This document shows positions 7,201-55,318 of a DNA stretch of 64,000 bases, in pieces. The stretch is from a virus, in the UHGV virus genome UHGV-0218015; one strand, 5' to 3'. Under the pieces are notes generated by a model that saw nothing but the letters and a program-made list of their open reading frames with translations, did no database searches and was not told the origin of the DNA. The position numbers and the translations under genes are program-made. Within the stretch, counting starts at the first letter, position 1, and the number at the start of each line of letters is the position of its first letter.

Positions 7201-8609
7201 CGCAATAGTTTCTTTTGTGCTGTCAGCGTCGCTTGTGTTGGATACTTAGCATTAACATAATCCGTTAACTGCGGCTTCGTTTTTCCGTAAGCTAATGCTG
7301 CATCCGACGCAATACCGTTCAACTCTAACGCACGGATCGGACCCCACGTATCTGTGTGTGGGTTGTCCTTACGTGTAACGTGTTCGTGCGCAGGCGCATT
7401 ACGATACAGCTGCTCAACCAACTGATGATACTTAACTATTAACTGGTAAACATCGTTATCAACGTCAGGCTCCGGCGCACCGGGTAAAGAACGAATTTGA
7501 ACATTATCGTTTTCAGCCGCATACCAGTTCAGGTTAATGTTCGTTTTAGACTTCAACCATTTGGCTACATCCGTTTTCGAATACCCTGCCGAGAACTCAT
7601 CAGGTGGCGTATCGACGTTGAACGTATAATCCATGGTCTGTTTATTTGTTTTTACTACGATTACGTAAACGCCGTTTCCGGGTTGTCGGGTTACACTAAA
7701 ATCGATATCGTTTTTTAACTCATCGTCAGTTAAACCGTTGATTAAAGTATAATCGTAGTTTGATGAACCGCTTCCAATAGCGACAGTTAAGACCAGTGAG
7801 ATTTTGCGCTGTTTTAGCTGCAACCGTAGAATGCTTGCACCACCGTTGGCATAACAGAGCATCCAATCGATCTGCTCGTTCGGATTCAACTTTGTCATGT
7901 CCGGCAGAATAGCAGGAATTCTGTGTTTCACCGACAGGGAATAGTTGTTAAAGGTTGTCGCTTTATAACTCAGGCTATAACGGTGGCGAGCTGTGTTGTA
8001 GGTGAAACCGCCTTTATTATCGTACGCAGCATACTGCTCGGAAGTGATAACCTTGCTATTAGCACGATATTCCAAATCCAGTGTATTGCGTGCGATTGGG
8101 TTAAGACGACTCACGACTTCCCCTAACGAATCGCCTACCCCAGCAATGGCCTGCATTAGCTCCAGTTCACCTTTCCAATTCTCCCAATCGAACTGGATAT
8201 CGACCGGTGGAAAGTAAACGTCTCCGATGACGGTGTCCCACTGACACGCGGAGGGGTATTTACCTTTATTAAGCTCGCGCTCTGCGGTAATCTGCTCTTG
8301 GGTTGCTTCACCACAACCAACGGCATGGTAATCTACAGTAAAGTTCGATTTGTATTTGTCATTAACAATCCAAATCATCCCGTGAATGAGATAGGCTGTG
8401 CGCAACATACCAGTCTCGTACGGGTGTGTAATAACGTAATCGTCGCCTAAGGTCAGTATTTTGCCGCCGCTCTTGACCACCAGGGATGTGGTGAAAAAAG
8501 GGGCGTGGGCAGGTACCAACATTCGGTATTTCGTACCAATGACGGCGACCGCTTCACCGGTTATTTTATTCCCCGGTTTTTTGAAGTGTGGGTCTAAGAC
8601 GACAGCCAT
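4287..8609 (-). CDS. large tail fibre / tailspike-like virion protein (1440 aa)
   Basis: 1440-aa ORF with ATG start at 8609, 10 nt upstream of the next gene; N-terminal module shared with the 1394-aa protein; long beta-rich, Gly/Thr/Asn-rich sequence. Confidence 0.6.
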   Translation of the reverse strand: MAVVLDPHFKKPGNKITGEAVAVIGTKYRMLVPAHAPFFTTSLVVKSGGKILTLGDDYVITHPYETGMLRTAYLIHGMIWIVNDKYKSNFTVDYHAVGCGEATQEQITAERELNKGKYPSACQWDTVIGDVYFPPVDIQFDWENWKGELELMQAIAGVGDSLGEVVSRLNPIARNTLDLEYRANSKVITSEQYAAYDNKGGFTYNTARHRYSLSYKATTFNNYSLSVKHRIPAILPDMTKLNPNEQIDWMLCYANGGASILRLQLKQRKISLVLTVAIGSGSSNYDYTLINGLTDDELKNDIDFSVTRQPGNGVYVIVVKTNKQTMDYTFNVDTPPDEFSAGYSKTDVAKWLKSKTNINLNWYAAENDNVQIRSLPGAPEPDVDNDVYQLIVKYHQLVEQLYRNAPAHEHVTRKDNPHTDTWGPIRALELNGIASDAALAYGKTKPQLTDYVNAKYPTQATLTAQKKLLRTSATKTANGTIGTLPGFTSFTTEVDPVSMSKYVSPRFSESYVSNGHRYHGALRYTGTKSGFATSFNAVPANLQDIDFIVTGRKTASGNEAVGTVSLRFYQKPGTNSGKFIQLTGEISAGKVGVKLELNGFSNPTPEVQYLSQAPNPAIPDGDFTLRFQLKRTGNVFDVVITINGKTYSARVNFTNMDAALEALENSHHFKSLISNVADNVTISSGNKGNTVTIKKAPDVVDGTRLGAQFVVDPKSIKFIGQGSTEVNAGNNPVTFQAGTNQLILYPDDRGLQWRGKKLLDPTTVAPYLPGNTAGGTGLFYGTSTTTVELTGSGIKASPFVATFILPTATDTTALAAWQLTDEFGTAENLAATPALIEKLDAEFTGKLVAVKSYINDMQLTSSVTIDKITFGLGNVANTPDVNLPISTAQRAELDKYSPKVHQHPFTAFGTGNATTAKRGLIKFGLDVDDATLALDGSVVMAQTSQIEKLENAVGGVDSGARVDIIRFGKSGDDLINVTVKDKILAMLPASTYFVGGETYDVPLMSVNVTERFPNPKTLIYAGIFVDIVDNKAKYVIHDSYNQAETDTMTRVGRLVVNELSEVDVVELRNVTRLGEFHELKDHIANDNAHIQRSASRAVLGLSDLTVGAPCWASGLQAVVRGEADWRYVVRGQYKALDGVKYDQIASKWIFDAKGVSDNVHGFIHNLFPTFKNAGMRVSWETESNAKTGTVLETVLGCWKNTDGEFMRLSLLITRGYRLTDSNGEYCYAGFGLNFGSGKSVVVGFTPTKRVTPAPWSSLRPDVTFTHTRGANNAITFNASLTLAGTVYTIVVFLSATDKYVSCTAAGGTTQKIPLADRLTGFNIEPIVNDPYTPIYYGLGGLYEDEVRANIRSTADSATANKVYGTLLDYVSNYSSLNRVRVMELSGVSSDPETLNALVATEFNNNLADYAALPIPPYLNKERVMSFIDTDNKVQAVIIRD

Positions 8610-8678
8610 TATCTACTCCTATAGTCCGTGGGCGTCGAAGTTCATACTATGACTTGAATCTATAGAGGAAAAAGAGCT

Positions 8679-9941
8679 GTGACTACTGCTTATCAAGTGC
8701 GACCCGACAGCGCTTTTGGCTTCTCTCGAGAGTCCCGTACCTGGGGAGCCATCGATGTCACGCAACCTTTAACTACGTTGTGTTCAGACTACCACACCTT
8801 TGAGATCGGTTTAAGTGCACTTGGTAAAGACTATACGTTAGTCAGTCAATACCATCTTGCCGAACTACAAAACCGAACAGACACTTTACAAGATTGGTTA
8901 AACGAAAAAGCCGGAAACGTCATTCCCACTCTAAAGACCGGATTGCCGAAACTGGAATTCAGTTGGGCACATTACCAATCAATTAATGCCGATGTACCTG
9001 TCGAAACATATCTGTGTCCACCAGGGTACCATCACAGTCAAGATTTCAGCTTAGACGATGCTGATGACGTTGTCGTCGTTTGTGAGGACAAGTGGAAAGA
9101 CAAATACCGTAATAGTGTGCTGTACAACATTAACGGTCAATGGGTACCACACCAGACGGATACCGTAGGTGTGCGATTGCCTGGGGCCGGTAAAATCGTA
9201 CGGAGAGCATGTACGCCAGATATTGGCTGTATGGTTTTTGGTCAGCTAGGGAATGTTAAAACCTATCCAATCGCCAACCTTACGCTAAACAAGCTCGACA
9301 CTACACGCGACTATTACTCCACGTTAATGATATCGCTGCCTGAGTCTATTACGGGGAAAACCGTGGGTTTCGTCATAGGCGGATTGCTACGTTGGTTGCC
9401 ACCGGACGGTTATTTCTCTGACCGTGCGATCATGATTTCTTTACCGAATTTTGATCTTGCACGGACCGTTCTGGAGACCCGACGTTATTACGACTGGGAT
9501 AGCATCGGTGTGGGGGATTTATCATCGCCTACCAACGTTCAACGTATTCGTAACCCTGAAACACTGAAAGCGCTTTTACTGCACGAATCCTCTTTTATCT
9601 TTACGGTAGATAATCCGTATTTAGAAGAAGAAGTTGTGGGTGTTTCGCATAACGCAGTTTGGGGACGTTGTTATCTCAAGGACCCCACCGATCCTGATTC
9701 TGAAAAACCATTAGGGTACTTAAATAATCGATTTGGAAAGACGGTAGGTTATTGGCCTACGTGGGAGGAAGGTGAGTGGGTATTTAACACCACCGAATTC
9801 GACAGTCAAAACTACGTCTTTCGTGAAGCCCGGTGGTATAATCAGAAGAAGATTAACGATGCTCAAGCAATCGTTGGTCCATTCGGTCCCTGGGAAAAAG
9901 TGTATTTAGAAATGCATCGCTTTAGAGCACGAAAAAAATAA
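8679..9941 (+). CDS. hypothetical protein (420 aa), possibly fibre-associated
   Basis: Complete ORF with GTG start, divergent from the fibre genes and followed by a strong terminator hairpin; no recognisable catalytic motifs. Confidence 0.5.
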   Translation: MTTAYQVRPDSAFGFSRESRTWGAIDVTQPLTTLCSDYHTFEIGLSALGKDYTLVSQYHLAELQNRTDTLQDWLNEKAGNVIPTLKTGLPKLEFSWAHYQSINADVPVETYLCPPGYHHSQDFSLDDADDVVVVCEDKWKDKYRNSVLYNINGQWVPHQTDTVGVRLPGAGKIVRRACTPDIGCMVFGQLGNVKTYPIANLTLNKLDTTRDYYSTLMISLPESITGKTVGFVIGGLLRWLPPDGYFSDRAIMISLPNFDLARTVLETRRYYDWDSIGVGDLSSPTNVQRIRNPETLKALLLHESSFIFTVDNPYLEEEVVGVSHNAVWGRCYLKDPTDPDSEKPLGYLNNRFGKTVGYWPTWEEGEWVFNTTEFDSQNYVFREARWYNQKKINDAQAIVGPFGPWEKVYLEMHRFRARKK

Positions 9942-10407: not shown

Positions 10408-11373
10408 TTATTGCGGAGGCGATGTCGGGCCATGTTTACCTTGGTGAATGTGAACGCTAAAGGTAATACCAGAAATAACGGCATCTTTAACCGTAAAGAC
10501 ACCGACGCCTTTGCCCGTACCACCGTATTTGAAGTTCTTAGCGACTTCCAGATTACCGGTGAACATCGCTTCCTTCCCTTCTTGTTTAAAGTTCGGCGTT
10601 TTAAATGTTGTCGAACTCCCTGCTTCCGTTAACCAGGTTTGTGTTTTAAACGTAACGGATTTCGCTGCTTCCGTATTGCGAACTTCGCATTTTTCATTAA
10701 TCGTTTTCGTTTCCAGGTTAATAGAACGCTTTGAATAAATGAACGCATCTTCTTTGTTGATGTTCACTTTTGAGAGCATCGCATTCTCAAAACCTAAATC
10801 GTCTTCCACCGAGTTAATGTAATACTTATTCCCTTTGTGGTCAACACACTGCCACGTGCCATTTGCATTATCAAACTGAAATAACCACGCCGCTTTCTCA
10901 CCGTTCACCATACTTGTTCTTAGCGTGATATGTTTGTCAATCGTCGAGATATTCAACACATACGCATTGGACAGGTCATCCGCCATCTGGTTTTCAGGGT
11001 CAGCAGACCACGCGTAAACCGCATCCTCTAATCGCTTAACGTTAGCGAAGTTCAGATCAATCCAAAAATAAATATCGGTTTTCCCCAAACGTAACAAGAT
11101 AACGTAATCTTCTCGTTTAACGTCAGGGGAATTAATTCGGTTGGAGTTAAACTTCCACCACTTTGCTGTTATCGTGTTACCCGTCTTAATGGTTAGGTTA
11201 TCTGTTGCACCAGACGTTTCATGCGTCTTTTCAGTTGCTGAAGAAACAGATTGCACCACGGTAGGGTTAGCAAAGTTGGTTTCAATTGGTATCACTTTTA
11301 CCCGATCTGTACCACGGGGTTTGTCTTCCGCGACGATACCAACTGAGAAAAAATCAACACTGGATTTCTCCAT
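10408..11373 (-). CDS. hypothetical protein (321 aa), possibly structural
   Basis: Complete minus-strand ORF downstream of the promoter-like region at about 11400; beta-rich, Thr/Asn-rich composition. Confidence 0.5.
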   Translation of the reverse strand: MEKSSVDFFSVGIVAEDKPRGTDRVKVIPIETNFANPTVVQSVSSATEKTHETSGATDNLTIKTGNTITAKWWKFNSNRINSPDVKREDYVILLRLGKTDIYFWIDLNFANVKRLEDAVYAWSADPENQMADDLSNAYVLNISTIDKHITLRTSMVNGEKAAWLFQFDNANGTWQCVDHKGNKYYINSVEDDLGFENAMLSKVNINKEDAFIYSKRSINLETKTINEKCEVRNTEAAKSVTFKTQTWLTEAGSSTTFKTPNFKQEGKEAMFTGNLEVAKNFKYGGTGKGVGVFTVKDAVISGITFSVHIHQGKHGPTSPPQ

Positions 11374-11393: not shown

Positions 11394-11425
11394 AATTGAT
11401 TTCAGATATATATTACTTAAGTGAA
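11394..11425 (+). promoter_or_regulatory. phage promoter-like motif TTTCAGATATATATTACTTAAGTGA
   Basis: 20-nt core identical to a second copy at about 15788-15812; contains TATATTAC, which I recall as the phiKZ early promoter consensus; sits in a divergent intergenic region. Confidence 0.45.
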
Positions 11426-15785: not shown

Positions 15786-15833
15786 AATTTCAGATATATA
15801 TTACTTAGGTGAGAGTTCAGTTACTCTCACTTA
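15786..15833 (+). promoter_or_regulatory. phage promoter-like motif TTTCAGATATATATTACTTAGGTGA with downstream stem-loop
   Basis: Second copy of the motif at 11394-11425; immediately followed by the inverted repeat GTGAGAGT..ACTCTCAC; about 48 nt upstream of the ATG at 15861. Confidence 0.45.
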
Positions 15834-24016: not shown

Positions 24017-24742
24017 ATGTATAAATCCAACTGGAGAAACAAAATGTTTCGTATCTTCTTTCTTTTACTGGTAACACTTTTCGCGTTTAACGCACAGGCG
24101 TCAACGTCAACGCCACAAACTAAACATCAGCGTGAGTTTACACAAATCCAACATCGGTTCGAAAAAGTCAGTCCGTTAATTGTGGAAATCTCACGAAAGC
24201 AAGGCGTTGATCCTAAGCTGATGATTACGCTGATTTATCGTGAATCGCGTTTTGATCCCAAGGCTTACAACAAAAGCTCACGGGCACACAGCCTGGTACA
24301 GATGCTTCCAAGTACCAAGCGTAGTCTGCTAAAGCTTTATGGAAAAGAATTAGGTCTTAGTCAGAACGCCGATTTGTATAATCCGCGTAACGCTGTTTTG
24401 CTGGCTACCGCGTATGTTAAACATCTTGAGAAGGGGTTAACCAAACGACTCAAACGCAAGCCCACCATGGCTGAAGTTGCGTTAGCTTACCACTGGGGTG
24501 AAAGTGGTGCTCACACGCGAATCAAAAGCAAATCTCGAGCAGCACAACGAGAAATGGCAGGCTTTATGAAAGATGCCTCGTTCTATAGCGCGAAAATCGA
24601 TGTGTCTGTTGTTGTGGGCTCGGCCCCACGTCAGCTTGCGTTTGCGAAGAAAACATCACGTCAGATTCAATTGGCGGAAGTTAGTAAAATTTGGGATACG
24701 ATAAACACGAGTTTTCCAATCAATAGAGGAGTTACCCTTTGA
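24017..24742 (+). CDS. secreted lytic transglycosylase (SLT-domain; possible signal-peptide endolysin)
   Basis: Sec leader MFRIFFLLLVTLFAFNAQA; SLT family-1 motifs ...YRESRFDPKAY...AHSLVQMLPST...; 241 aa. Confidence 0.7.
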   Translation: MYKSNWRNKMFRIFFLLLVTLFAFNAQASTSTPQTKHQREFTQIQHRFEKVSPLIVEISRKQGVDPKLMITLIYRESRFDPKAYNKSSRAHSLVQMLPSTKRSLLKLYGKELGLSQNADLYNPRNAVLLATAYVKHLEKGLTKRLKRKPTMAEVALAYHWGESGAHTRIKSKSRAAQREMAGFMKDASFYSAKIDVSVVVGSAPRQLAFAKKTSRQIQLAEVSKIWDTINTSFPINRGVTL

Positions 24743-25314: not shown

Positions 25315-25794
25315 ATGATAAAATTCATTTGGCGTTACCCAACACGTTTTTGGTTTGTGGTGCTTGAACTGTGTATGGTTCTTGTAGCGGTTACTTTTAT
25401 CGATGCACCTGCCTCACAGTTGACCATTTTCTGTCTTTTCGTGGCAGTTCCTGTATGGGTTATTGCGAAGGCTATTAAGTTCGCCATGGTGAGTTGGGCG
25501 AATTATACGTGTCCGTATAAACCCAGACAAATCATGAACTGGCTAATGTTTATTGAAGAACGTTTACCGGCGCAACGTAAATTACTGGGCTGGTCGTCTA
25601 TGTTGGATATTGCGCTAGAAACCAATGCAAAGTTCCCCGGTGCGAAAAACCCGTATTTGCTGTTGGCGGTAATTGTTGCGCAACAAAAACTGGTAGGCGA
25701 TCGTTGGTTGCCAGAAGAGGCGAAAGCGTATATCCGTAAACATCCAAAAGCTTTTTACTCAGTAGGTCAATGGCGTAACTTGCCATTATTTTAA
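25315..25794 (+). CDS. membrane protein with two N-terminal transmembrane helices (holin-like topology?)
   Basis: Hydrophobic segments FWFVVLELCMVLVAVTFI and LTIFCLFVAVPVWVIAKAI; 159 aa; lies near the secreted SLT. Confidence 0.45.
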   Translation: MIKFIWRYPTRFWFVVLELCMVLVAVTFIDAPASQLTIFCLFVAVPVWVIAKAIKFAMVSWANYTCPYKPRQIMNWLMFIEERLPAQRKLLGWSSMLDIALETNAKFPGAKNPYLLLAVIVAQQKLVGDRWLPEEAKAYIRKHPKAFYSVGQWRNLPLF

Positions 25795-25848: not shown

Positions 25849-26784
25849 ATGACTTTTCCATCTGAAGTAATTTACGAACTGGCTAACACTCTACGTCGTT
25901 ACCATAGCAGCAAGACGATGCAAACCAATGTGGGTGCGACCGCCGACTTTTTACGTGGTTATTTCCTAGGCAGAAATCCAACGTCGATTACACAGGAAAC
26001 GGTTTTCTCTATCGAACGTACCTCCTTAATCCTTCCAATTGATAATTTCACTGCCTTTCAAGAAAGGAATACGTTCAACTTCTCTATGGGAATGCTGTAT
26101 TCGACCATCGCCATTAATCCCATCATGAGAGATGACCCATCTTTCGTGCCTTACCAACATACAACGGATCATGGTAATTGGTTCGTTGTGGTAGAACAAG
26201 GCGCGAATCAGTATGATGTTGTTGCGGCTCGTGACGAAGCTTTCTTTGATTTAGGACAGATTTATCGCCGTCAAGAAATTGCGTTTGACCTACGTCAAGG
26301 TAATATCGGATTAAGTGGGGCTGCTGTCTATTTCATCCTGAGCAGTTGGTCACATGTAGGTTTTGTGCTGATGAAAAACGGAGCGTTGTTCAACTCACCG
26401 TTGGTAAAATACCATAGCCTTGAGGAAGGAGATCGTGACGAAGAAGAAACGGTACCTGGCACAGAAGTCGCCGTCTGTGAAAACTACGATGATCTGAAAT
26501 CTGTGCTCGTTAAACGCGATGTTTTCGAATCGTTAAACCTGGATTTCCCTGGTGACGAAAATGAAATATCCGTAGCTGATCTGGTAGAAGCGTTGTGTCA
26601 GAAAGACCAAGCTAACGAAATTAGCGACGAAGAAGCAGAACTCTTCCAAGTTCAACAACTCGTCAGCAAGGTTATCGGTGGCCAGGAAATCGTTGACACA
26701 CTTATGGCTTTACCACCGAAGAAACGTACTCAAAAGTACATTCGTGAACTGGTTCTTGAAAAGCTGGGCCAAACCAAAAAATAA
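25849..26784 (+). CDS. hypothetical protein (311 aa), paralog of 26846..27394
   Basis: N-terminus MTFPSEVIYELANTLRRY...FLRGYFLG resembles MFPSSEYLTHLAYGIRRG...FLANFLYNHFG of the next gene. Confidence 0.5.
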   Translation: MTFPSEVIYELANTLRRYHSSKTMQTNVGATADFLRGYFLGRNPTSITQETVFSIERTSLILPIDNFTAFQERNTFNFSMGMLYSTIAINPIMRDDPSFVPYQHTTDHGNWFVVVEQGANQYDVVAARDEAFFDLGQIYRRQEIAFDLRQGNIGLSGAAVYFILSSWSHVGFVLMKNGALFNSPLVKYHSLEEGDRDEEETVPGTEVAVCENYDDLKSVLVKRDVFESLNLDFPGDENEISVADLVEALCQKDQANEISDEEAELFQVQQLVSKVIGGQEIVDTLMALPPKKRTQKYIRELVLEKLGQTKK

Positions 26785-26790
26785 TCTAAG

Positions 26791-26825
26791 ACCCCTACTC
26801 CTCCGGGAGTAGGGTTAATTCTTTT
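26791..26825 (+). terminator. rho-independent terminator (CCCTACTCC hairpin family)
   Basis: CCCCTACTCCTCCGGGAGTAGGG followed by TTAATTCTTTTT. Confidence 0.7.
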
Positions 26826-26845: not shown

Positions 26846-27394
26846 ATGTTTCCATCGTCTGAATATTTAACTCATCTGGCTTACGGTATTCGCCGTGGTT
26901 CTGTTTTCCGCTCACGTTTAAAGGATATAAATTTCCTGGCTAATTTCTTATATAACCATTTTGGAGATGGAACTAACGTTTACAAAAAGATCACCTCAAC
27001 ACAACTTTATTCCCTTATAGCGGCGTCTGAAATCGTACCTACAGATATTTGGCGATTCAAGCGTTATAATGGTGATATTACAATCAGTTTTCTTGATCAT
27101 TCCCCTATTACCGTTGAAATCGCCGATCGTATTGACATTAATAGTGAAATGTCTGGTTGGAAGATTCTGTTTGATTGTGGCAATCGTTATGCGGTACTTG
27201 GCTCCTCTGATGAACGCGACTTCCCATTCGACAGGCCCTACTATTACCTTAGCGAAGATGATTTCCCGGATAAAGAATCCAATATCTATTTAAACGGGGA
27301 TACCGTTTACTTCATTTTTCGTACTTGGAACGATGTTGCTGCTATGATTGCTCAAGGCGTCATCGATTACCGTAAACTAGAAGTCGACATTTAA
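26846..27394 (+). CDS. hypothetical protein (182 aa), paralog of 25849..26784
   Basis: Shared N-terminal motif with the preceding gene. Confidence 0.5.
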   Translation: MFPSSEYLTHLAYGIRRGSVFRSRLKDINFLANFLYNHFGDGTNVYKKITSTQLYSLIAASEIVPTDIWRFKRYNGDITISFLDHSPITVEIADRIDINSEMSGWKILFDCGNRYAVLGSSDERDFPFDRPYYYLSEDDFPDKESNIYLNGDTVYFIFRTWNDVAAMIAQGVIDYRKLEVDI

Positions 27395-27403
27395 AATAAA
27401 AGC

Positions 27404-27436
27404 TACCCTACTCCTTCGGGAGTAGGGTAATCTTTT
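27404..27436. terminator. bidirectional terminator (CCCTACTCC hairpin family)
   Basis: CTACCCTACTCCTTCGGGAGTAGGGTA flanked by A-rich and T-rich runs, between convergent genes. Confidence 0.7.
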
Positions 27437-28060
27437 TTAGTTAACTAACCCGTTAGCTTTAAGAATCTCTAACATTTGGTTGTTTAACTCTTTTAATTTT
27501 TTGTTTTCTTCTGTCAACGCAGCAACTTTCTCGCCCAACGGAATAGACTCACGAATTTTATTTTTTCGTGCCGCTTCCATCTGCAAGTGTTGTTCCTCCG
27601 TTACCTTCCCCTCATACTCGAGAGTTGTAATTTCAACTTTCGGTTCAATTCCCAGAGTATGCGTGAGAATATCTGAAACGTCTTTTGTTATAGACGACAC
27701 TTTCACGTAATCCGGTACTAGTGCCAAATCTACCACTAACACATTTCGTTGATACGTGATCCCGGATAAACCTGGGTACGATTCCAGGTAGGTGTCAGGT
27801 ATGTATACAACTTGACCATCACGAGATTTAAATGTCAAAATCGACGCACTAACATTCGCATCTGCTAAATATTCTTCACGCCCTAGCCCTGCTGGCTGGT
27901 AATACGAATTATAAACGTCGATATTCTGACGTACTAAATCTGGGAAGGTACGCGATGCCTCTACCGTATAAATGACTGTCTCGGCTAAAGTAAATGGTGT
28001 TTTTACTTTAAACAGACCCGTGGTGTTGACTGGTACCTGTAGTGGTAAACGCGTAGCCAT
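27437..28060 (-). CDS. hypothetical protein (207 aa) with C-terminal coiled coil
   Basis: Minus-strand ORF 4 nt downstream of 28064..29437; C-terminal EENKKLKELNNQMLEILK coiled-coil-like segment. Confidence 0.5.
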   Translation of the reverse strand: MATRLPLQVPVNTTGLFKVKTPFTLAETVIYTVEASRTFPDLVRQNIDVYNSYYQPAGLGREEYLADANVSASILTFKSRDGQVVYIPDTYLESYPGLSGITYQRNVLVVDLALVPDYVKVSSITKDVSDILTHTLGIEPKVEITTLEYEGKVTEEQHLQMEAARKNKIRESIPLGEKVAALTEENKKLKELNNQMLEILKANGLVN

Positions 28061-28063
28061 TCA

Positions 28064-29437
28064 TTACTCCTCGTCTAACTCGCTGTACCATTTCGCTTTC
28101 CGAGACAGGATTCGATATTCCACATTATCGTACTCAAATACCCAGAAATAGTTATCGGGGTCTGCCTCATCGACCAGTTTTACAATGTCTAAGCTAGTTT
28201 GATACGGGTGGTATTCTTCCGCAGCAATAAGTGCCTGGAAGAATAACGCCAACCATTCGGTCGTTGTTTTCGACATACGTGCAATATCAGGGTTAGTCGT
28301 CGCAATTAACGCATAATCCGGGATAGTTTCGTGTAAGGTCGCTTTCCGCGTATCATTTTCCGGCCCACTGATTACAACACAGTTTAATGATTTATAAACG
28401 GTTGGTAAGTCAGTTACATCTGTCGTAGGCTTACTGATCGTTTTAGTATTTCTTTCTGCTACCGTCAGGTCTGCCCATTCTCCAAACCGACTGATAGCTT
28501 TGACCCAGAAATCATATGGAAGGATAGGGGAATAAAGCGCCGCTACGTCTTCCTCATTAGGTATTCCACGAATTTTCCATCCAGGAACAATTGTAAATTT
28601 CGTGGTAGTGAAAATTTCAGGAAATACCTTTACCCCGACGGGGACAGTAAAGCTAGAATTAGCGAGAATATGTTCACGCAACGCTTGCTTTATTTTCGTT
28701 GGGTTTTTTCCCGCACGGCCGTAAATAATAACCGACATTGGGACAACTAGGGTGGACTCGTAGTTTTCTTGATCGTGCCAAGTATAGTAGTTGGTTTGGA
28801 TAGCGGTGTAAGGAAATCCTGCCATTAACTCATTGATTTTCTTATGGTGTTCGGTAAGGTTAAACCCTTCCATCGCCTTTTCAACGACTGACTTGGTCGA
28901 CAAAAATGTGTCGATTGGTGAAATCGGCATCTGCACTTCGATTTCGAACCCTGTGTAATCTTGATCGAAGTCTTCATCCGAGAACCAAACAATGATCTGA
29001 TTATCTACATCAGTGTCATCTTGTACTTGATCTGCTGTTGCTTCATATTTCCAGCTCACCCAGCGTGGGAACCAATTACTGTTCGTCTGAATCATCGCAC
29101 CGGACTGAACGCCAGAAATGGTTGATTGGAATTGTCCTAGTAACAGGCGCTGGAATTCAAGTTCGTCATTTCTCAGATTCCCCAAGATGGCTTGCTGGTA
29201 TATCCATTGAGAAACGGTTAGAATATGATCAGAAAATTCGGCTGGTACAACAACCGTCTGTTTTTCTCGTTTAGACGTAAAAGTCACCAATTGAACTTGC
29301 AAATTGGTTTTGGTAAACGTCTGTTTACTCTTCGCGTACGAGAGTGTCAAATCCGACAGCTCGCCCACCGGAGCGGTGACGCCGTCCTGATTGTCAAACA
29401 GTGCCGGTATCTGAATAAAACCTTGTAAGTCTAACAT
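28064..29437 (-). CDS. hypothetical protein (457 aa), possibly structural
   Basis: Minus-strand ORF with RBS; forms a two-gene inverted cassette inside the plus-strand block. Confidence 0.5.
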   Translation of the reverse strand: MLDLQGFIQIPALFDNQDGVTAPVGELSDLTLSYAKSKQTFTKTNLQVQLVTFTSKREKQTVVVPAEFSDHILTVSQWIYQQAILGNLRNDELEFQRLLLGQFQSTISGVQSGAMIQTNSNWFPRWVSWKYEATADQVQDDTDVDNQIIVWFSDEDFDQDYTGFEIEVQMPISPIDTFLSTKSVVEKAMEGFNLTEHHKKINELMAGFPYTAIQTNYYTWHDQENYESTLVVPMSVIIYGRAGKNPTKIKQALREHILANSSFTVPVGVKVFPEIFTTTKFTIVPGWKIRGIPNEEDVAALYSPILPYDFWVKAISRFGEWADLTVAERNTKTISKPTTDVTDLPTVYKSLNCVVISGPENDTRKATLHETIPDYALIATTNPDIARMSKTTTEWLALFFQALIAAEEYHPYQTSLDIVKLVDEADPDNYFWVFEYDNVEYRILSRKAKWYSELDEE

Positions 29438-29462
29438 AATTAAAAATACTCCGAGGTGAGCA

Positions 29463-29966
29463 ATGGGTTCATTTTTTAAAGTGCTTCCGTTCTTCCTTCA
29501 GATGTTAATGGAAGCATTTAAACCAGGAGAAGGAGAAAACGTATCAAGAGCAAGCAAGATAATGACTTTAATCATCACGATCTTGTTGTCGTATTCTGGC
29601 TTCGTCTCCTACGCCTATGTACAACAGTTTCACGCGCTCGTTGCAGTGCAGTCTCATGACACTTATATGTCACAGTCTTACCAAGAGATGAAACAAGATC
29701 GAGATAAACTAAAAGAAGATAATGATAAGTTATACGACAGACTCTTCGTTTGCCTAGGCCAGAAACCGCCATATGAAAGCACGTTTAATTCATCGAAAGC
29801 GAGCGGTACGACGAAGGATCTGTCCTCGGCAAAACCAGAAACTCCTGTTAATCCGGCTTCAACACCAGAACAACGTAAAGAGGCTTCGGCGAGACCTGTT
29901 GGTAATTTAAACGCGAACAGTTTTCGACAGGAGATCATAAATACGCTATCGTCTTCTAAGGAGTGA
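29463..29966 (+). CDS. membrane protein with transmembrane helix and coiled coil
   Basis: Hydrophobic MTLIITILLSYSGFVSYAYV followed by charged coiled coil EMKQDRDKLKEDNDKLYDRL; 167 aa. Confidence 0.45.
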   Translation: MGSFFKVLPFFLQMLMEAFKPGEGENVSRASKIMTLIITILLSYSGFVSYAYVQQFHALVAVQSHDTYMSQSYQEMKQDRDKLKEDNDKLYDRLFVCLGQKPPYESTFNSSKASGTTKDLSSAKPETPVNPASTPEQRKEASARPVGNLNANSFRQEIINTLSSSKE

Positions 29967-30425
29967 TTGATGAAAATGCTATTATTCATCATGGTAGTGT
30001 TCGTGGGGTTGGTGAGTAATAGCTACGGTGACGAAGTTAAACGTCCAGCTTATAGACCACTGGAACTTCCTCCTGAACCGCCAATAATGGTGAATTGGAA
30101 AATTGACAAGAATGCAATGCGTGAGTATGTTGCAGATGTCAACACCTATGCTTATTACGTTTATGTCTACACACGAAATTTAAACCAGCAAGCCGCTAAA
30201 CGTGGCTGGAGTCCACCAATGTTGGCTCCACTTTGTGAACGCTATGAGTTACCGAAATTACACGTTGTACCTGAGCGCATGTTTCTTGATGAGAGCTCTT
30301 TAACGGCCCAGGAGATTAGCCGTGATTTATCGCGTAAACTCAATAATTTGTTGTGGAATTACCGTTCCGACCGTCAGGCACTGCTCGATTCGTATAACCA
30401 ATACTTGACATCGTGTTTGTACTGA
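29967..30425 (+). CDS. secreted protein (signal peptide)
   Basis: Leader MMKMLLFIMVVFVGLVSNSYG with no lipobox cysteine; 152 aa. Confidence 0.45.
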   Translation: MMKMLLFIMVVFVGLVSNSYGDEVKRPAYRPLELPPEPPIMVNWKIDKNAMREYVADVNTYAYYVYVYTRNLNQQAAKRGWSPPMLAPLCERYELPKLHVVPERMFLDESSLTAQEISRDLSRKLNNLLWNYRSDRQALLDSYNQYLTSCLY

Positions 30426-32772: not shown

Positions 32773-33434
32773 TCGTTTATAGTGAGGTCTTGTCAAAAGC
32801 CCCTCGGTTTTTACAAACTCACTTTATGTATAACGCACGGCAGTATTGGGGCTTTAAAGCCCCTTACTCCGAAGATTGGGAAGTTGTGGAAAAGTTGGCA
32901 TTTGTGTTTTCTCTTTCGTTGTTGTGGGAGATCATTGCACTATACAACGCGGGTTGTGATATCCCTGAGAACGGCTTTTTCCAACAACACCTATTCCAAA
33001 AATTCACAGCATCGATAGAAAATCATGAAGTACGCAAGGAGTGTATCGGCTACGCAGAGCATTCTGAAGAATTGAGAAAGATTTCCAAATTAGTTATCAC
33101 GCGGGCATGGGCTGAATTCGAAACTTACCCCGAAAAAATAATTTGGTTTAATCGTGAACAGTTTATTAAAGAGGCAGTCAGTCAACATCCCGTTCGATTA
33201 ATCGTGTTAAAGCCATCCGATCTTGCCTTACGCCGTGTCTATTCGTTTCCAGAGGAAATCATTTTTTCCGCAGGAACAGCAGATTATGGTATTTTTAAGC
33301 AAGGCGATTCTTGGATTCTTCCGCACGACTTAGACCAGTATTTGCTCAGTAGCGATCAAATACATTCGGGTTATGACTCACAAGTGAAGGAGTTTACAGC
33401 CGATCCTTTTTTCATTAAAAATATTCTTAGATAG
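32766..33434 (+). CDS. hypothetical protein (222 aa)
   Basis: ATG overlaps the RNase H stop (ATGCTGA). Confidence 0.5.
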   Translation: MLIVYSEVLSKAPRFLQTHFMYNARQYWGFKAPYSEDWEVVEKLAFVFSLSLLWEIIALYNAGCDIPENGFFQQHLFQKFTASIENHEVRKECIGYAEHSEELRKISKLVITRAWAEFETYPEKIIWFNREQFIKEAVSQHPVRLIVLKPSDLALRRVYSFPEEIIFSAGTADYGIFKQGDSWILPHDLDQYLLSSDQIHSGYDSQVKEFTADPFFIKNILR

Positions 33435-33453
33435 ATATTATCCAGGTGTAACA
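33434..33453 (+). promoter_or_regulatory. promoter-like motif variant AGATATTATCCAGGTGTAAC
   Basis: Resembles the motif at 42551-42570 and, more loosely, the TATATTAC motifs at 11394 and 15786; about 18 nt upstream of the ATG at 33471. Confidence 0.3.
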
Positions 33454-37687: not shown

Positions 37688-37730
37688 TACCCCTAGACCA
37701 CACGGTCTAGGGGTAGCTTTACTTTTTTTA
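37688..37730. terminator. bidirectional terminator
   Basis: Hairpin CCCCTAGACCACACGGTCTAGGGG followed by a long T-run; between convergent genes. Confidence 0.7.
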
Positions 37731-38483
37731 TTTTTTGTTTGCCTTAAGCGCTTTTAAGCGTTCGGCAGTAACGTTCAGGCATTCGATTAATTCGTTAACC
37801 TGTTTCATGAACAAACCAAACAGCTCCACCCAATCGGAAGCAAAATCTAACATCATCGTCAGTTCTTTTGCTACATTCGGATGAATGTTTTGTTCGGACA
37901 AGATTTCTGACGTAGTGCGAATAGACTCGATTGACTTGTCGATATTCGTCCGTAGACGTTTTGTGATTTCAACGTTCAGTGCCTTAGCGCGATTGAACGC
38001 AACATCAATTTCGGACGCGCTGTGATACGTCTTCTCAATTGGTCGCTGGTCAATAACGTTGTTAGTGTACGATTTCGCTAACAAGTTAACCAGATCTTTC
38101 GGGTTAACGTTACGTAAAGGTATATTAACATTTTTGTAACGGAAACCAATCGGTAATGACAGTACACCCACATCATGTGTAAGGGCCGAAAGTTGTTTAT
38201 CGACCGGCAACAGAATACCCGTATAAATGTTTTGCAGTGAACTCCATACGGATTCTAAGCGGTTCAAATGATCCATCACGTAGGTATTAAACCCAGGTGG
38301 AACGATAACCAACATTCCCGCAAAGTGAAGGAATTTTTCTTGTTGCATCCACTTGGAAACGTCCGACATCTCGTCATAAGTGGTTAATGCAATCTCTTGT
38401 TGAGGGCCACTAAAGCCTTTCGGTAAGATTGCAGACGCTTTAGCGGCGAAGCTAGATAACGCTGCAAGTGGATTTACATTCAT
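37728..38483 (-). CDS. hypothetical protein (251 aa)
   Basis: Isolated minus-strand ORF bounded by a terminator and an intergenic region. Confidence 0.5.
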   Translation of the reverse strand: MNVNPLAALSSFAAKASAILPKGFSGPQQEIALTTYDEMSDVSKWMQQEKFLHFAGMLVIVPPGFNTYVMDHLNRLESVWSSLQNIYTGILLPVDKQLSALTHDVGVLSLPIGFRYKNVNIPLRNVNPKDLVNLLAKSYTNNVIDQRPIEKTYHSASEIDVAFNRAKALNVEITKRLRTNIDKSIESIRTTSEILSEQNIHPNVAKELTMMLDFASDWVELFGLFMKQVNELIECLNVTAERLKALKANKK

Positions 38484-41380: not shown

Positions 41381-42099
41381 GATTATCTCGACGTTTCTTA
41401 ATCGATATTGATACGTTATTTGATACGCGTTTAGGTTGGGTAAAAGCCATTAAGCCTGAAAGCTTAGCCTTACTAGACTACGATGTTTATCGGCGTCGCT
41501 ATACAGAAGCATGGGCGGGTGTACTCGGGTTTGAAAAATGGGATGAAGAGTGGCGGAAGCGGGATAAGCGCGCTTTGATTAATGCGCAGCCTACTGAATT
41601 ATTGGCAACGATGAAAAACGAATTCGAGTGTATGATGCTTGAAATCGAAATGCATTCGCCAATTGAAAAACCTACTCTGACCATCAATACATGGCCTTAT
41701 ACGGATTTAACAGGCGAAGAACTTCAAGCCTTTTTGAATCTGTTTCGGATGTATTACAATAACGTACAAGTCGAATTGGTGTCTTGGTCGTTAGAAGACC
41801 TCACACCGGGGAGATTATCATTGGCGTGGGATTGCTGGATAATGTACGATTGGTTCGAGTGGATTAAGCTTAACGCTTCGCACTTGAAAAAACCGATTCC
41901 AAGCTTTACCATCACACACCCTGCCATGCTCACACCAGAATTGACCGGCGTGTTGGTTGAACAAATCAAACAAGACGGCGTTAACCCGTTTAAGGAACAT
42001 ATCCGGTTTATGGCAGAGTGGGTCGGTGTCGACCCACGGGATGCTGCTTTATTTAGTCTTGCTCGTCCTGTTCAGGACGTGCAAACGCCGCCATCATAA
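41377..42099 (+). CDS. hypothetical protein (240 aa)
   Basis: Complete ORF; start overlaps the previous stop. Confidence 0.5.
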   Translation: MRLSRRFLIDIDTLFDTRLGWVKAIKPESLALLDYDVYRRRYTEAWAGVLGFEKWDEEWRKRDKRALINAQPTELLATMKNEFECMMLEIEMHSPIEKPTLTINTWPYTDLTGEELQAFLNLFRMYYNNVQVELVSWSLEDLTPGRLSLAWDCWIMYDWFEWIKLNASHLKKPIPSFTITHPAMLTPELTGVLVEQIKQDGVNPFKEHIRFMAEWVGVDPRDAALFSLARPVQDVQTPPS

Positions 42100-42517
42100 T
42101 GGACTTAACATCGATTTGTTCACCTACTGGTGCCAGCTCCCCTTCTGTTACCTCAACATTGGGAATAGCAGGAACGGGGGGCTGGTAGCCCTGGGTTTCT
42201 TCGATTTCCTCATCATGACGTCGTATTTTGATATTACCACGTTGCATGAGGATGCTATTAAGTGCATTCGCCAAATCTTGGTTAGCTTCGCTGTTTTTCT
42301 GTGCAGCGGCGACACGACGTTTGGAAATGATTTGTTTATCAACGTCGTTAAGCAAAGACCCTAGACGGTCTACCGTTTTCAAGTCTTTGTGTGCTTGTGG
42401 ATCGTCTAAGATGAGGTTCACAATCCGTACACGGGCTTGTTGCGTTTGGCGGAGAAGCGATTCTTCGTCGTCCACATCTCCATCAAACGCCTGATATTTC
42501 ACTTCTTCGTCAGCCAT
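42053..42517 (-). CDS. hypothetical acidic protein (154 aa)
   Basis: Minus-strand ORF with Asp/Glu-rich termini; its 3' end overlaps the 3' end of 41377..42099 by about 47 nt. Confidence 0.45.
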   Translation of the reverse strand: MADEEVKYQAFDGDVDDEESLLRQTQQARVRIVNLILDDPQAHKDLKTVDRLGSLLNDVDKQIISKRRVAAAQKNSEANQDLANALNSILMQRGNIKIRRHDEEIEETQGYQPPVPAIPNVEVTEGELAPVGEQIDVKSIMMAAFARPEQDEQD

Positions 42518-42550
42518 TCTTACTACCTCAATTTCAAAAAGAAGTCAGAC

Positions 42551-42570
42551 AGATATTATCTACGTGAGAC
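42551..42570 (+). promoter_or_regulatory. promoter-like motif variant AGATATTATCTACGTGAGAC
   Basis: Resembles the motif at 33434-33453; about 19 nt upstream of the ATG at 42589. Confidence 0.3.
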
Positions 42571-46748: not shown

Positions 46749-46780
46749 TGCCCTACTCCTTCATAGGAGTAGGGTATTTT
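46749..46780 (+). terminator. rho-independent terminator (CCCTACTCC hairpin family)
   Basis: GCCCTACTCCTTCATAGGAGTAGGG followed by TATTTTCATTTTT. Confidence 0.7.
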
Positions 46781-46806
46781 CATTTTTACCCTAAAGGAGA
46801 ATTATC

Positions 46807-52519: not shown

Positions 52520-53083
52520 TTAAGCGCCAGGAACAATCCCAGAAGAGATATACGTTAAACCGTCAAGTTCGGTGACTTTAATCAACTTCGAAATATCCTT
52601 ACCGTCGGACGGTAGCTCTGTCAAGTACACCTCCAACCGCCCCGTCCACGCCAAAGATCTCCCATTCATGATAATGATGGTTTTATCTTTGCTGTCTGGT
52701 GCAGCTGTTGGGTTCTCAACTTCATCGTCGGTAATCTGCAAATTGTACTTAGTGCGAAAAAGCTGTAGTACCTCAGATACCGTAGCCGCATTAACACCCG
52801 CAACAGAAACTACAAAATCACCTAAGAGGTGCTCTAAATCCAACCGACGATAAATAACGTCAATTTTACCAAACGTTTTCTGTTCAATAATTCCCTGGAC
52901 GCTAAGTTGGGTATTTAATCGCGTAAATTGAGTTTCTGGTGTTTCTACCGCGGGAATATGTGACGGTGTGCCAAAATTCAACTTATCGATTGTAATACCT
53001 TTCTCTACCAAACCTGGATTCTTTTTTACTAATAACTCATAAACCAGTTGTTTTCCTGATTTACCTAATAGCGTATTAGCCAT
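52520..53083 (-). CDS. hypothetical virion-associated protein (187 aa)
   Basis: Minus-strand ORF co-oriented with, and 16 nt from, the downstream large virion genes. Confidence 0.5.
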   Translation of the reverse strand: MANTLLGKSGKQLVYELLVKKNPGLVEKGITIDKLNFGTPSHIPAVETPETQFTRLNTQLSVQGIIEQKTFGKIDVIYRRLDLEHLLGDFVVSVAGVNAATVSEVLQLFRTKYNLQITDDEVENPTAAPDSKDKTIIIMNGRSLAWTGRLEVYLTELPSDGKDISKLIKVTELDGLTYISSGIVPGA

Positions 53084-53099
53084 TATTTCCTCTCAAACA

Positions 53100-55271: not shown

Positions 55272-55285
55272 TTTATACCTCTAAA

Positions 55286-55312
55286 AAGTAGGGGGTAGTT
55301 ACCTACCCCCGA
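55286..55312 (-). other. intergenic stem-loop between two minus-strand virion genes
   Basis: Inverted repeat GTAGGGGGTAG..CTACCCCC; no clear U-run, so more likely an RNA processing or attenuation element than a terminator. Confidence 0.35.
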
Positions 55313-55318
55313 TTACTG

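What the first reader, a model, noticed from the sequence alone, without database searches (positions are those of the whole stretch)
27437..29437. Two-gene minus-strand cassette embedded in the plus-strand block
Genes of 457 and 207 aa are transcribed opposite to about 40 kb of surrounding plus-strand genes, bounded by a bidirectional terminator on one side and a divergent start region on the other. They have no recognisable enzymatic motifs. The orientation flip suggests separate regulation, possibly as late or structural genes.
Basis: seen in the sequence. Interest (0 to 1): 0.35.

Follow-up and report, generated by a model that had tools for sequence, protein, structure and literature searches.

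The report
Two conserved jumbo-phage baseplate genes
The two minus-strand genes encode baseplate (tail-tip) proteins of a phiKZ-like jumbo phage, equivalent to phiKZ gp157 and gp161, and this flipped gene pair is conserved across the whole phage group, so the finding is real but ordinary.

Summary
ORFs of 457 aa (28064-29437, minus) and 207 aa (27437-28060, minus) sit inside a 40.7-kb plus-strand block. They end at a true bidirectional hairpin terminator (27403-27430). They start 25 bp from a divergent plus-strand gene.

The window is a phiKZ-like (Chimalliviridae) jumbo phage collinear with Salmonella phage SPN3US. It probably belongs to the proposed genus 'Bapsvirus', known from enterobacterial isolate assemblies.

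The 457-aa protein is the ortholog of phiKZ gp157 and SPN3US gp203:
- sequence match E 2e-42 over the full length;
- predicted fold TM 0.83/0.86 to PDB 9xqd_J.
In phiKZ, gp157 forms the ring of 18 dimers that braces the outer baseplate. In SPN3US, gp203 is essential and tail-associated.

The 207-aa protein is a DUF7194 member, homologous to phiKZ gp161 (the 'horn', inner-baseplate ring) and Goslar gp187.

The adjacent, flipped pair, divergent from an RNase H block, recurs in 13 of 15 sampled genomes. Both genes are under strong purifying selection (dN/dS 0.03 and 0.06).

Late or separate regulation is plausible, because early-type promoter motifs occur only on the plus strand. It is not shown, and no promoter for the cassette was found. 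Interest is low: these are new members of known families.

The parts
28064..29437 (-). 457-aa gene: ortholog of phiKZ gp157 / SPN3US gp203 / Goslar gp188. In phiKZ this is the outer-peripheral-baseplate 'brace ring' protein.
   Evidence: ORF. PHROG 3293 'virion structural protein', E 2.3e-172. PDB 9xqd_J PHIKZ157, E 2.1e-42, residues 1-448 vs 1-440 of 445. AF2 model pLDDT 87.3, and Foldseek to 9xqd_J gives E 2e-36, TM 0.83/0.86, with no other PDB fold at E<0.1. dN/dS 0.028. tblastn finds it in 288 jumbo-phage records.
27437..28060 (-). 207-aa gene: DUF7194 protein, ortholog of phiKZ gp161 ('horn', HR2 ring of the inner peripheral baseplate) and Goslar gp187 (lower wedge of the inner baseplate).
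   Evidence: ORF. Pfam DUF7194, 240 bits against a cut-off of 27, E 1.6e-71. PHROG 3241, E 1e-76. PDB 9xqs_E PHIKZ161 E 2.6e-23, and 11lx_n 'Inner Baseplate Protein gp187' E 6e-25, both near full length. dN/dS 0.061.
28061..28072 (-). Junction between the two genes. The SD GAGGAG (28067-28072) lies in the last codons of the 457-aa ORF, followed by the TAA stop, a 3-nt spacer (TGA) and the ATG of the 207-aa ORF. This is a bicistronic layout, and translational coupling is possible.
   Evidence: Sequence read ('GACGAGGAGTAATGAATGGCT'). The same 3-nt spacing occurs in L008.
27403..27430 (.). Bidirectional intrinsic-terminator hairpin: 12-bp stem and 4-nt loop, with an A-run at 27395-27402 and a T-run at 27433-27438. 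It ends both the cassette and the convergent plus-strand unit.
   Evidence: Called on both strands. MFE -21.6 kcal/mol (plus) and -23.5 kcal/mol (minus), z -5.1 and -7.0. In L008 the stem is conserved and the loop differs. Equivalent hairpins follow the gp161-like gene in phiEaH2, JN03, pVa-21, Goslar and Deimos-Minion.
29438..29462 (.). 25-bp divergent gap holding the two abutting ribosome-binding sites: minus GGAG at 29449-29452, plus GAGGTGAG at 29453-29460. There is no room for two conventional promoters.
   Evidence: Sequence. 100% identical in L008. Near-invariant in phiEaH2, JN03 and SPN3US.
29378..29522 (.). Zone of excess synonymous-site conservation, covering the first 20 codons of the 457-aa gene and of the divergent 167-aa gene. 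It is the candidate location of embedded promoters, 5'-UTR signals or mRNA structure.
   Evidence: Codons identical across four genomes at conserved residues: 7/11 vs 8/61 (p 0.0009) and 7/13 vs 63/292 (p 0.013). No such effect in four control genes. The plus-strand RNA of 29438-29530 folds at z -3.45.

Best explanation
The cassette is a two-gene transcription unit encoding two baseplate proteins of a phiKZ-like (Chimalliviridae) jumbo phage.

Shown by homology:
- The 457-aa product is the counterpart of phiKZ gp157. In the phiKZ virion, gp157 forms 18 dimers arranged as a ring that ties together the six fibre-bearing 'star lobes' of the outer baseplate.
- The 207-aa product is the counterpart of phiKZ gp161 / Goslar gp187. 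This is a Y-shaped dimer with a C-terminal helical handle. Six copies of the dimer form the lower hexagonal ring (HR2) under the wedges and contact the pin, a wedge protein and the HR1 ring.

Shown from sequence:
- The two ORFs are 3 nt apart, and the second SD lies inside the end of the first ORF.
- The unit ends at a bidirectional hairpin terminator.
- Its start codon is 25 bp from a divergent gene.
- This layout is ancestral to the whole phage group.

Inferred:
- The unit is transcribed as one roughly 2.05-kb mRNA by the phage's own non-virion RNA polymerase, in the middle-to-late class. This would keep it separate from the surrounding plus-strand early/middle DNA-metabolism operons, which carry AT-rich early-type promoters.
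- Because the gap is only 25 bp, the start site must lie in the gap or inside the first ~60 nt of the divergent gene, where synonymous sites are unusually conserved.
For: Identity:
- Sequence and family matches.
- Fold match TM 0.83/0.86 to 9xqd_J.
- Structural roles taken from PMC13250141 and bioRxiv 10.64898/2026.04.21.720040.
- Genetics: SPN3US gp203 (ORF157 homolog) is essential, structural and tail-associated (PMC5105663). The window protein is 78% identical to SPN3US-type proteins.

Conservation:
- The gp161-like gene directly follows the gp157-like gene in 13 of 15 genomes sampled. The unit is divergent from the RNase H block in all but JM-2012.
- dN/dS is 0.03 and 0.06.

Regulation:
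- Terminator.
- Every annotated minus-strand gene in the window is a virion protein, while the plus block holds SbcC, RNase H, exonuclease, UvsX, ThyA, MazG and similar genes.
- Four early-promoter-like motifs, all on the plus strand and intergenic, against 0.01 expected. They recur at syntenic SPN3US positions.
- A late-type TA.TATG motif lies 15-37 nt upstream of the homologous gene in Goslar, Deimos-Minion, pVa-21 and phiKZ.
- Excess synonymous conservation around the gap.
Against: - No late-type TATG or other recognisable promoter was found upstream of this cassette on the minus strand. The only TATG is the start codon context itself.
- No transcript or proteome timing data could be obtained for this phage or for SPN3US.
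- The AF2 model of the 207-aa protein is low confidence (pLDDT 47), so its three-domain architecture was not verified structurally.
- The synonymous constraint could instead reflect mRNA structure of the plus-strand gene.
- Older annotations call the phiKZ homologs 'structural head proteins'.
Confidence: 0.88

Rival explanations
1. The genes are structural, but the strand flip has no regulatory meaning. On this view it is a frozen ancestral inversion, and the cassette is expressed in the same temporal class (for example middle) as its neighbours.
For: No late-type promoter was found upstream in this clade. In phiKZ some virion proteins (vRNAP subunits) are middle genes (abstract, PMC4666361). 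Orientation can persist simply because inversions are rare.
Against: The flip is retained across clades that are otherwise heavily rearranged. All three small minus-strand islands and all flanking minus-strand genes have virion-protein affinities. Early-type promoter motifs are exclusively on the plus strand. Homologous cassettes elsewhere carry TATG late-type motifs.
Confidence: 0.12
2. The two proteins are capsid (head or inner-vertex) components rather than baseplate components.
For: The KTN4 annotation calls the gp157 homolog a 'putative structural head protein'. PHROG 3293 is filed under 'head and packaging'. One PDB chain homologous to the 207-aa protein is labelled 'Vertex binding complex protein gp66'.
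Against: The phiKZ cryo-EM atlas places gp157 and gp161 in the baseplate. Goslar gp187 is modelled in the inner baseplate. SPN3US gp203 is missing from tailless particles, so it is tail-associated. The 'gp66' chain has the sequence of Goslar gene gp187 and is present in 12 copies, so the label is inconsistent. The same entry labels a spike homolog 'Tail terminator gp51'.
Confidence: 0.03
3. The cassette is a recently acquired, self-contained accessory module (moron) with its own signals.
For: It has the opposite orientation and its own terminator.
Against: It is present at the same syntenic position in every related genome examined, including very distant ones. GC content (0.42) equals that of its flanks. 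It is under strong purifying selection. The ortholog in SPN3US is essential.
Confidence: 0.01

Closest known systems
phiKZ gp157 (PDB 9xqd) and its SPN3US ortholog gp203
   Same: Homologous over the full length (E 2e-42). Same predicted fold (TM 0.83/0.86). Same position at the head of a unit divergent from the RNase H block. The SPN3US ortholog is an essential tail protein.
   Different: Only 26-28% identical to phiKZ gp157. In phiKZ the gene heads a seven-gene block (gp157-gp163) with a 178-bp upstream gap carrying a TATG. Here it heads a two-gene unit with a 25-bp gap and no recognisable promoter.
phiKZ gp161 'horn' (PDB 9xqs) / Goslar gp187 (PDB 11lx) / Pfam DUF7194
   Same: Homologous over the full length (E ~1e-23 to 1e-25; DUF7194 E 1.6e-71). 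Same length (203-208 aa). The C-terminal long helical segment is predicted here too (residues 155-202).
   Different: In phiKZ it is separated from gp157 by three inserted genes. The 3-D architecture was not verified here because the AF2 model is low confidence.
Goslar gp188-gp187, Deimos-Minion gp150-gp149, OBP_259-258, RSF1 ORF059-060 and similar pairs (the same two-gene module in other chimalliviruses)
   Same: Same gene order and adjacency. Divergent from the RNase H block. Terminator after the second gene.
   Different: Those phages have 40-170-bp upstream gaps. A late-type TATG lies ~34-37 nt before the start in the three examined for it (Goslar, Deimos-Minion, pVa-21). The SPN3US/Erskinevirus/Bapsvirus-type clade has compressed the gap to 24-25 bp.
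Peripheral baseplate proteins of phage T4 (functional analogy only)
   Same: They work in a similar way: rings and braces around a wedge-hub core that carry the fibres and rearrange on sheath contraction (the analogy is drawn in PMC13250141).
   Different: No sequence or fold similarity was detected. Foldseek finds nothing in the PDB except phiKZ gp157, and profile searches find only chimallivirus chains. This protein is not a member of any T4 family.

Membership tests
phiKZ gp157 family (PHROG 3293; outer-baseplate brace-ring protein) | Full-length sequence homology to phiKZ gp157 | tested here: met
   phmmer E 2.1e-42, residues 1-448 vs 1-440 of 445. PHROG 3293 E 2.3e-172, 1-450 vs 1-432 of 436.
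phiKZ gp157 family (PHROG 3293; outer-baseplate brace-ring protein) | Same three-dimensional fold as the solved chain | tested here: met
   AF2 pLDDT 87.3, pTM 0.81. Foldseek to 9xqd_J gives E 2.1e-36, TM 0.83/0.86 over 457 columns. The next unrelated hit has E 0.16.
phiKZ gp157 family (PHROG 3293; outer-baseplate brace-ring protein) | Conserved genomic position: divergent from the RNase H block and followed by the gp161-like gene | tested here: met
phiKZ gp157 family (PHROG 3293; outer-baseplate brace-ring protein) | Virion (tail/baseplate) location, dimer and ring assembly, essentiality | not testable with these tools
   Known only for the relatives: the phiKZ cryo-EM structure and the SPN3US gp203 amber mutant and tailless-particle proteome.
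DUF7194 / phiKZ gp161 'horn' / Goslar gp187 inner-baseplate protein | Pfam DUF7194 match above the gathering threshold, over the full length | tested here: met
   240.4 bits against a cut-off of 27; residues 6-204 vs model positions 4-202 of 204.
DUF7194 / phiKZ gp161 'horn' / Goslar gp187 inner-baseplate protein | Sequence homology to the solved chains | tested here: met
   9xqs_E E 2.6e-23 (10-205 vs 4-201 of 203). 11lx_n E 6.3e-25.
DUF7194 / phiKZ gp161 'horn' / Goslar gp187 inner-baseplate protein | Architecture: N-terminal globular domain, central beta/alpha domain, long C-terminal helical handle | tested here: inconclusive
   The AF2 model has mean pLDDT 47 (12-sequence MSA), so it was not used for fold search. 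The secondary-structure pattern (strands at 31-110, long helices at 155-172 and 175-202, pLDDT 77-82 at 181-200) is compatible. There is a weak bZIP-like hit at 165-196.
phiKZ-type late transcription unit (nvRNAP, TATG promoter) | TATG motif (G = +1) a short distance upstream of the first gene | tested here: not met
   No TATG lies within 200 nt upstream except the start-codon context, and a PWM scan found nothing upstream. The motif is present for the homologous gene in Goslar (-37), Deimos-Minion (-37), pVa-21 (-34) and phiKZ (-15).
phiKZ-type late transcription unit (nvRNAP, TATG promoter) | Intrinsic hairpin terminator at the 3' end | tested here: met
phiKZ-type late transcription unit (nvRNAP, TATG promoter) | Late accumulation of transcript | not testable with these tools
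   No accessible RNA-seq or time-course data.
Moron / horizontally acquired accessory cassette | Sporadic distribution and atypical composition | tested here: not met
   Found in 288 jumbo-phage records and syntenic in all 15 genomes examined. GC 0.42 matches the flanks.

The most novel reading that the evidence does not exclude
In the SPN3US/Erskinevirus/Bapsvirus-type clade the ancestral 40-170-bp promoter gap upstream of the baseplate cassette has collapsed to 24-25 bp, with back-to-back ribosome-binding sites. The first 20 codons of both divergent genes show excess synonymous conservation.

The most novel reading not excluded is that each gene's promoter is embedded in the other gene's 5' coding region. 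The two transcripts would then overlap head-to-head as antisense RNAs. The junction would act as a transcriptional-interference or antisense switch between the early/middle plus-strand program and late baseplate expression.

A related possibility is that read-through of the bidirectional terminator gives early antisense RNA across the baseplate genes.
Probability: 0.15. Interest if true: 0.4.

Novelty: new member of a known kind. Interest (0 to 1): 0.15.

Why it matters
The main value is for annotation. In this lineage, which is abundant as ~222-227-kb contigs or 'plasmids' in Salmonella, E. coli and Shigella isolate assemblies, both proteins are deposited only as 'hypothetical protein'. They can now be named as the outer-baseplate brace-ring protein (gp157-like) and the inner-baseplate horn protein (gp161-like, DUF7194).

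The analysis also shows that this two-gene unit, flipped against the RNase H/replication block, is an ancestral and near-universal feature of phiKZ-like phages. That makes it a handy synteny marker.

The compressed 25-bp divergent junction is a small, testable case for how these phages place promoters for their unusual RNA polymerases. None of this is surprising to a specialist.

Tried and rejected
- **Sigma-70 promoter scan.** It found 10 sites against 15.4 expected. There is no enrichment, which fits host-RNAP-independent transcription, so it was not used.
- **Search for a phiKZ-late TATG promoter upstream of the cassette.** I tried regular expressions and a 7-sequence PWM. Only the training sites scored well and nothing lay upstream of 29437. 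The 'TAATTATG' at the start codon matches phiKZ's own gp157 promoter 8-mer. I rejected it as a start site because the protein aligns with phiKZ gp157 from residue 1 and a GGAG SD lies 11 nt upstream.
- **'ATATCTG' motifs upstream of two other minus-strand genes.** These turned out to be the reverse complement of plus-strand early-type promoters.
- **phiKZ start-site tables.** The supplements of PMC10914365 are not held and Ceyssens 2014 is not held, so no temporal class for gp157/gp161 could be cited.
- **SPN3US time-course data.** Not found.
- **AF2 model of the 207-aa protein.** Too low in confidence for a fold search.
- **Profile searches of the PDB for remote relatives of either protein.** Only chimallivirus chains were found.
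- **Dual capsid/baseplate location of the 207-aa protein.** I considered this because of the PDB label 'Vertex binding complex protein gp66'. I rejected it because the chain has the Goslar gp187 sequence.
- **Acquired moron.** Rejected on distribution and composition.
Full report
**1. Observation**

The ORF list gives 28064..29437 (-) 457 aa and 27437..28060 (-) 207 aa, both starting with ATG. The whole-window list shows an almost unbroken plus-strand series from 11795 to 52463, which is 40.7 kb. So the coordinates, sizes and '~40 kb' are right.

Two qualifications apply.
- Two other single-gene minus-strand islands exist in the block, at 37728-38483 and 42053-42517. Both match PHROG families strongly.
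- The 'divergent start region' is only 25 bp (29438-29462). It holds little more than two abutting Shine-Dalgarno sequences.

The terminator claim is correct. The 42-nt convergent gap contains a 12-bp GC-rich hairpin (27403-27430) with an A-run on one side and a T-run on the other. It is called on both strands. It folds at -21.6 kcal/mol (plus) and -23.5 kcal/mol (minus), with z-scores of -5.1 and -7.0.

Both ORFs are under strong purifying selection against an 84%-identical relative, with dN/dS of 0.028 and 0.061. AT skew flips over the cassette, as it does in the other minus-coded regions.

**2. What the window is**

tblastn with the 457-aa protein finds 288 jumbo-phage records. The best are Erwinia phage phiEaH2 (84% aa) and SPN3US-type Salmonella phages (78%). 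Matches extend down to phiKZ (26.5%), Goslar, OBP, and Ralstonia and Vibrio phages.

The window is collinear with SPN3US 160-205 kb, including the same minus-strand islands. At the nucleotide level, no isolated phage in the collection exceeds ~75% identity.

The exact proteins occur, named 'hypothetical protein', on 222-227-kb contigs of many Salmonella, E. coli and Shigella isolate assemblies. Relatives at 84% identity are recorded as ~222-kb 'plasmids' of E. coli 98232 and Enterobacter ludwigii. This fits the proposed Chimalliviridae genus 'Bapsvirus', described from bacterial-assembly-associated phage sequences (PMC12768965).

**3. What the two genes are**

*The 457-aa protein.*
- It matches PHROG 3293 ('virion structural protein', E 2e-172).
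- It matches PDB chain 9xqd_J, PHIKZ157, over its whole length (E 2.1e-42).
- An AF2 model built on a 45-sequence MSA (pLDDT 87.3) superposes on 9xqd_J with TM 0.83/0.86. It matches nothing else in the PDB.
- According to the phiKZ structural atlas, gp157 forms a ring of 18 dimers that interconnects the six 'star lobe' complexes of the outer peripheral baseplate, which is the platform that anchors twelve fibres (PMC13250141).
- In SPN3US the ORF157 homolog gp203 (51.9 kDa) was identified by amber mutation as essential. It is a structural protein and is tail-associated (PMC5105663).

*The 207-aa protein.*
- It is a full-length DUF7194 member (240 bits).
- It matches PHIKZ161 (9xqs, E 2.6e-23) and Goslar 'Inner Baseplate Protein gp187' (E 6e-25).
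- In phiKZ, gp161 is the 'horn'. It is a Y-shaped dimer with two N-terminal globular domains, a central domain and a handle made of long C-terminal helices. Six dimers form the HR2 ring, which contacts the pin gp174, the wedge protein gp87 and the HR1 protein gp49.
- In Goslar, gp187 is part of the lower wedge of the inner baseplate.
- My AF2 model of this protein was low confidence (pLDDT 47). Its fold was therefore not verified, although long C-terminal helices (155-202) are predicted.
- A third PDB hit is labelled 'Vertex binding complex protein gp66'. Its sequence is that of Goslar gp187 and it is present in 12 copies, so I treat the label as inconsistent.

**4. Conservation of the arrangement**

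In the following genomes the gp161-like gene immediately follows the gp157-like gene: phiEaH2, JN03, SPN3US, the E. coli 'plasmid' relative, Vibrio pVa-21, Goslar (gp188-gp187), Deimos-Minion, PhiEaH1, Aphrodite1, OBP, RSF1 and JM-2012. The identity of the downstream gene was confirmed by HMM, with E values from 1e-22 to 1e-63.

In all of these except JM-2012, the pair is divergent from a block containing RNase H. Only phiKZ/KTN4 and PS119XW have three genes inserted between the two, with further genes appended.

A hairpin terminator follows the second gene wherever the pair is a two-gene unit. The flip is ancestral.

**5. Regulation: what is shown and what is inferred**

*Shown.*
- In this window, every minus-strand gene with an assignable affinity is a virion protein. 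These are 92-4276, 4287-8609, the gp164-like spike at 10408-11373, the cassette, and 52520-62485.
- The plus block encodes SbcC, acetyltransferase, macro/phosphatase, transglycosylase, exonuclease, RNase H, UvsX, an RNAP fragment, ThyA and MazG.
- A 20-36-nt AT-rich element (AGAYAKATATTAYYYANGTG) occurs four times. All copies are intergenic and on the plus strand, against 0.01 expected by chance. It recurs at syntenic SPN3US positions.
- This fits the description of jumbo-phage early promoters as conserved AT-rich motifs upstream of early operons (PMC7598289).
- Three structural genes in the window (8609-, 8679+, 38483-) have A(C/G)TATG 31-37 nt upstream of the ATG. This resembles the phiKZ late promoter TATG, in which G is +1 (PMC4666361).
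- The gp157-like genes of Goslar, Deimos-Minion, pVa-21 and phiKZ have the same motif at -37, -37, -34 and -15.

*Not found.*
- In this clade the gap is only 24-25 bp, and no such motif lies upstream of the cassette.

*Additional observation.*
- The gap is 100% conserved in the 84% relative.
- Synonymous sites are unusually conserved in the first 20 codons of both flanking genes: 7/11 vs 8/61 (p 0.0009) and 7/13 vs 63/292 (p 0.013).
- They are not unusually conserved at the 5' ends of four control genes.
- This is compatible with regulatory signals embedded in the coding 5' ends. It is equally compatible with a structured 5' end of the plus-strand mRNA (z -3.45).

*Inferred.*
- The unit has dedicated middle/late transcription by the phage non-virion RNAP.

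**6. Mechanism in one line**

A bicistronic mRNA of about 2.05 kb runs from a start near 29440-29520 to the hairpin at 27403-27430. It yields two dimer-forming baseplate proteins. One braces the outer, fibre-bearing rim and the other builds the lower inner ring around the pin and spike. In phiKZ the copy numbers are 36 and 12 per virion (18 and 6 dimers).

**7. Comparison and novelty**

Both proteins pass the sequence tests for their families, and the larger one also passes the fold test. No similarity to T4 or other baseplate proteins was detectable, so the T4 comparison is functional analogy only.

The cassette is a new, previously unannotated member of a known and recently solved kind. Its only distinctive trait is the compressed divergent junction shared with SPN3US-type and phiEaH2-type phages. 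Interest is low.

Noticed in passing
whole window; L008 (NZ_CP173450.1); NZ_CP134650.1: The phage is not among isolated phages at more than ~75% nucleotide identity. Its exact proteins sit on 222-227-kb contigs of many Salmonella, E. coli and Shigella isolate assemblies. Relatives at 84% identity are deposited as ~222-kb 'plasmids'. This matches the proposed genus 'Bapsvirus' and the carrier-state idea in PMC12768965.
   Followed up: partly
window 11404-11423, 15792-15811, 33429-33448, 42547-42566 (all +): A family of AT-rich elements, AGAYAKATATTAYYYANGTG, extends to 36 nt in repeat family D1. Every copy is intergenic and upstream of plus-strand operons, against 0.01 expected by chance. It recurs at syntenic SPN3US positions. 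These are likely virion-RNAP early promoters.
   Followed up: yes
window 8610-8678: The 69-bp divergent gap between two baseplate/fibre genes (4287-8609 minus; 8679-9941 plus, a phiKZ gp130 homolog) contains a near-palindrome, GTCATAGTATGAAC. It places a late-type TATG on both strands, 31 and 37 nt from the two start codons. This is a candidate bidirectional late promoter.
   Followed up: partly
window 37728-38483 (-) and 42053-42517 (-): There are two further single-gene minus-strand islands in the plus block. The 251-aa protein (PHROG 4682) matches phiKZ gp153 weakly (E 0.002) and has an ACTATG at -34. The 154-aa protein (PHROG 5894) overlaps features annotated 'putative virion structural protein' in relatives. 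The plus ORF 41957-42364 that overlaps it is probably spurious.
   Followed up: partly
PDB entry 36za (Goslar composite model): Molecule names look shifted. The 207-aa, 12-copy chain with the sequence of Goslar gp187 is labelled 'Vertex binding complex protein gp66'. A 3-copy chain homologous to the phiKZ gp164 spike is labelled 'Tail terminator gp51'.
   Followed up: partly
window 26793-26814, 27404-27429, about 46750-46785: Several plus-strand terminator hairpins share almost the same stem sequence (CCCTACTCC...GGAGTAGGG) followed by a T-run. This looks like a terminator sequence family rather than independent hairpins.
   Followed up: no
window 29483-29488 / 29510-29515: A conserved inverted repeat, GCTTCC...GGAAGC, lies inside the first 18 codons of the divergent 167-aa gene. 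It is invariant in phiEaH2, JN03 and SPN3US. The plus-strand RNA of 29438-29530 folds at -25.9 kcal/mol (z -3.45). No covariation is available to test it.
   Followed up: partly
window 24017-24742, 25315-25794, 29463-29966, 29967-30425 (all +): The plus-strand genes around the cassette look envelope- or lysis-related. They are an SLT transglycosylase with an N-terminal signal-like segment, a multi-TM 159-aa protein, a 167-aa protein with an N-terminal TM segment plus coiled coil (spanin-like layout), and a 152-aa protein with a signal peptide but no lipobox. All four are conserved PHROGs (the transglycosylase annotated, the other three of unknown function).
   Followed up: no
window 25849-26784 and 26846-27394 (+): The two genes just upstream of the terminator both match PHROG 11818 and have similar N-termini. 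SPN3US, JN03 and phiEaH2 have a single ~380-410-aa gene there. This indicates a tandem duplication or split in this lineage.
   Followed up: no
window 10408-11373 (-): This is a homolog of the phiKZ central spike gp164 (PDB 6orj, E 2e-21), with a C-terminal gp45-like (Mu-type) spike-tip segment. PHROG calls it 'baseplate assembly protein'.
   Followed up: no
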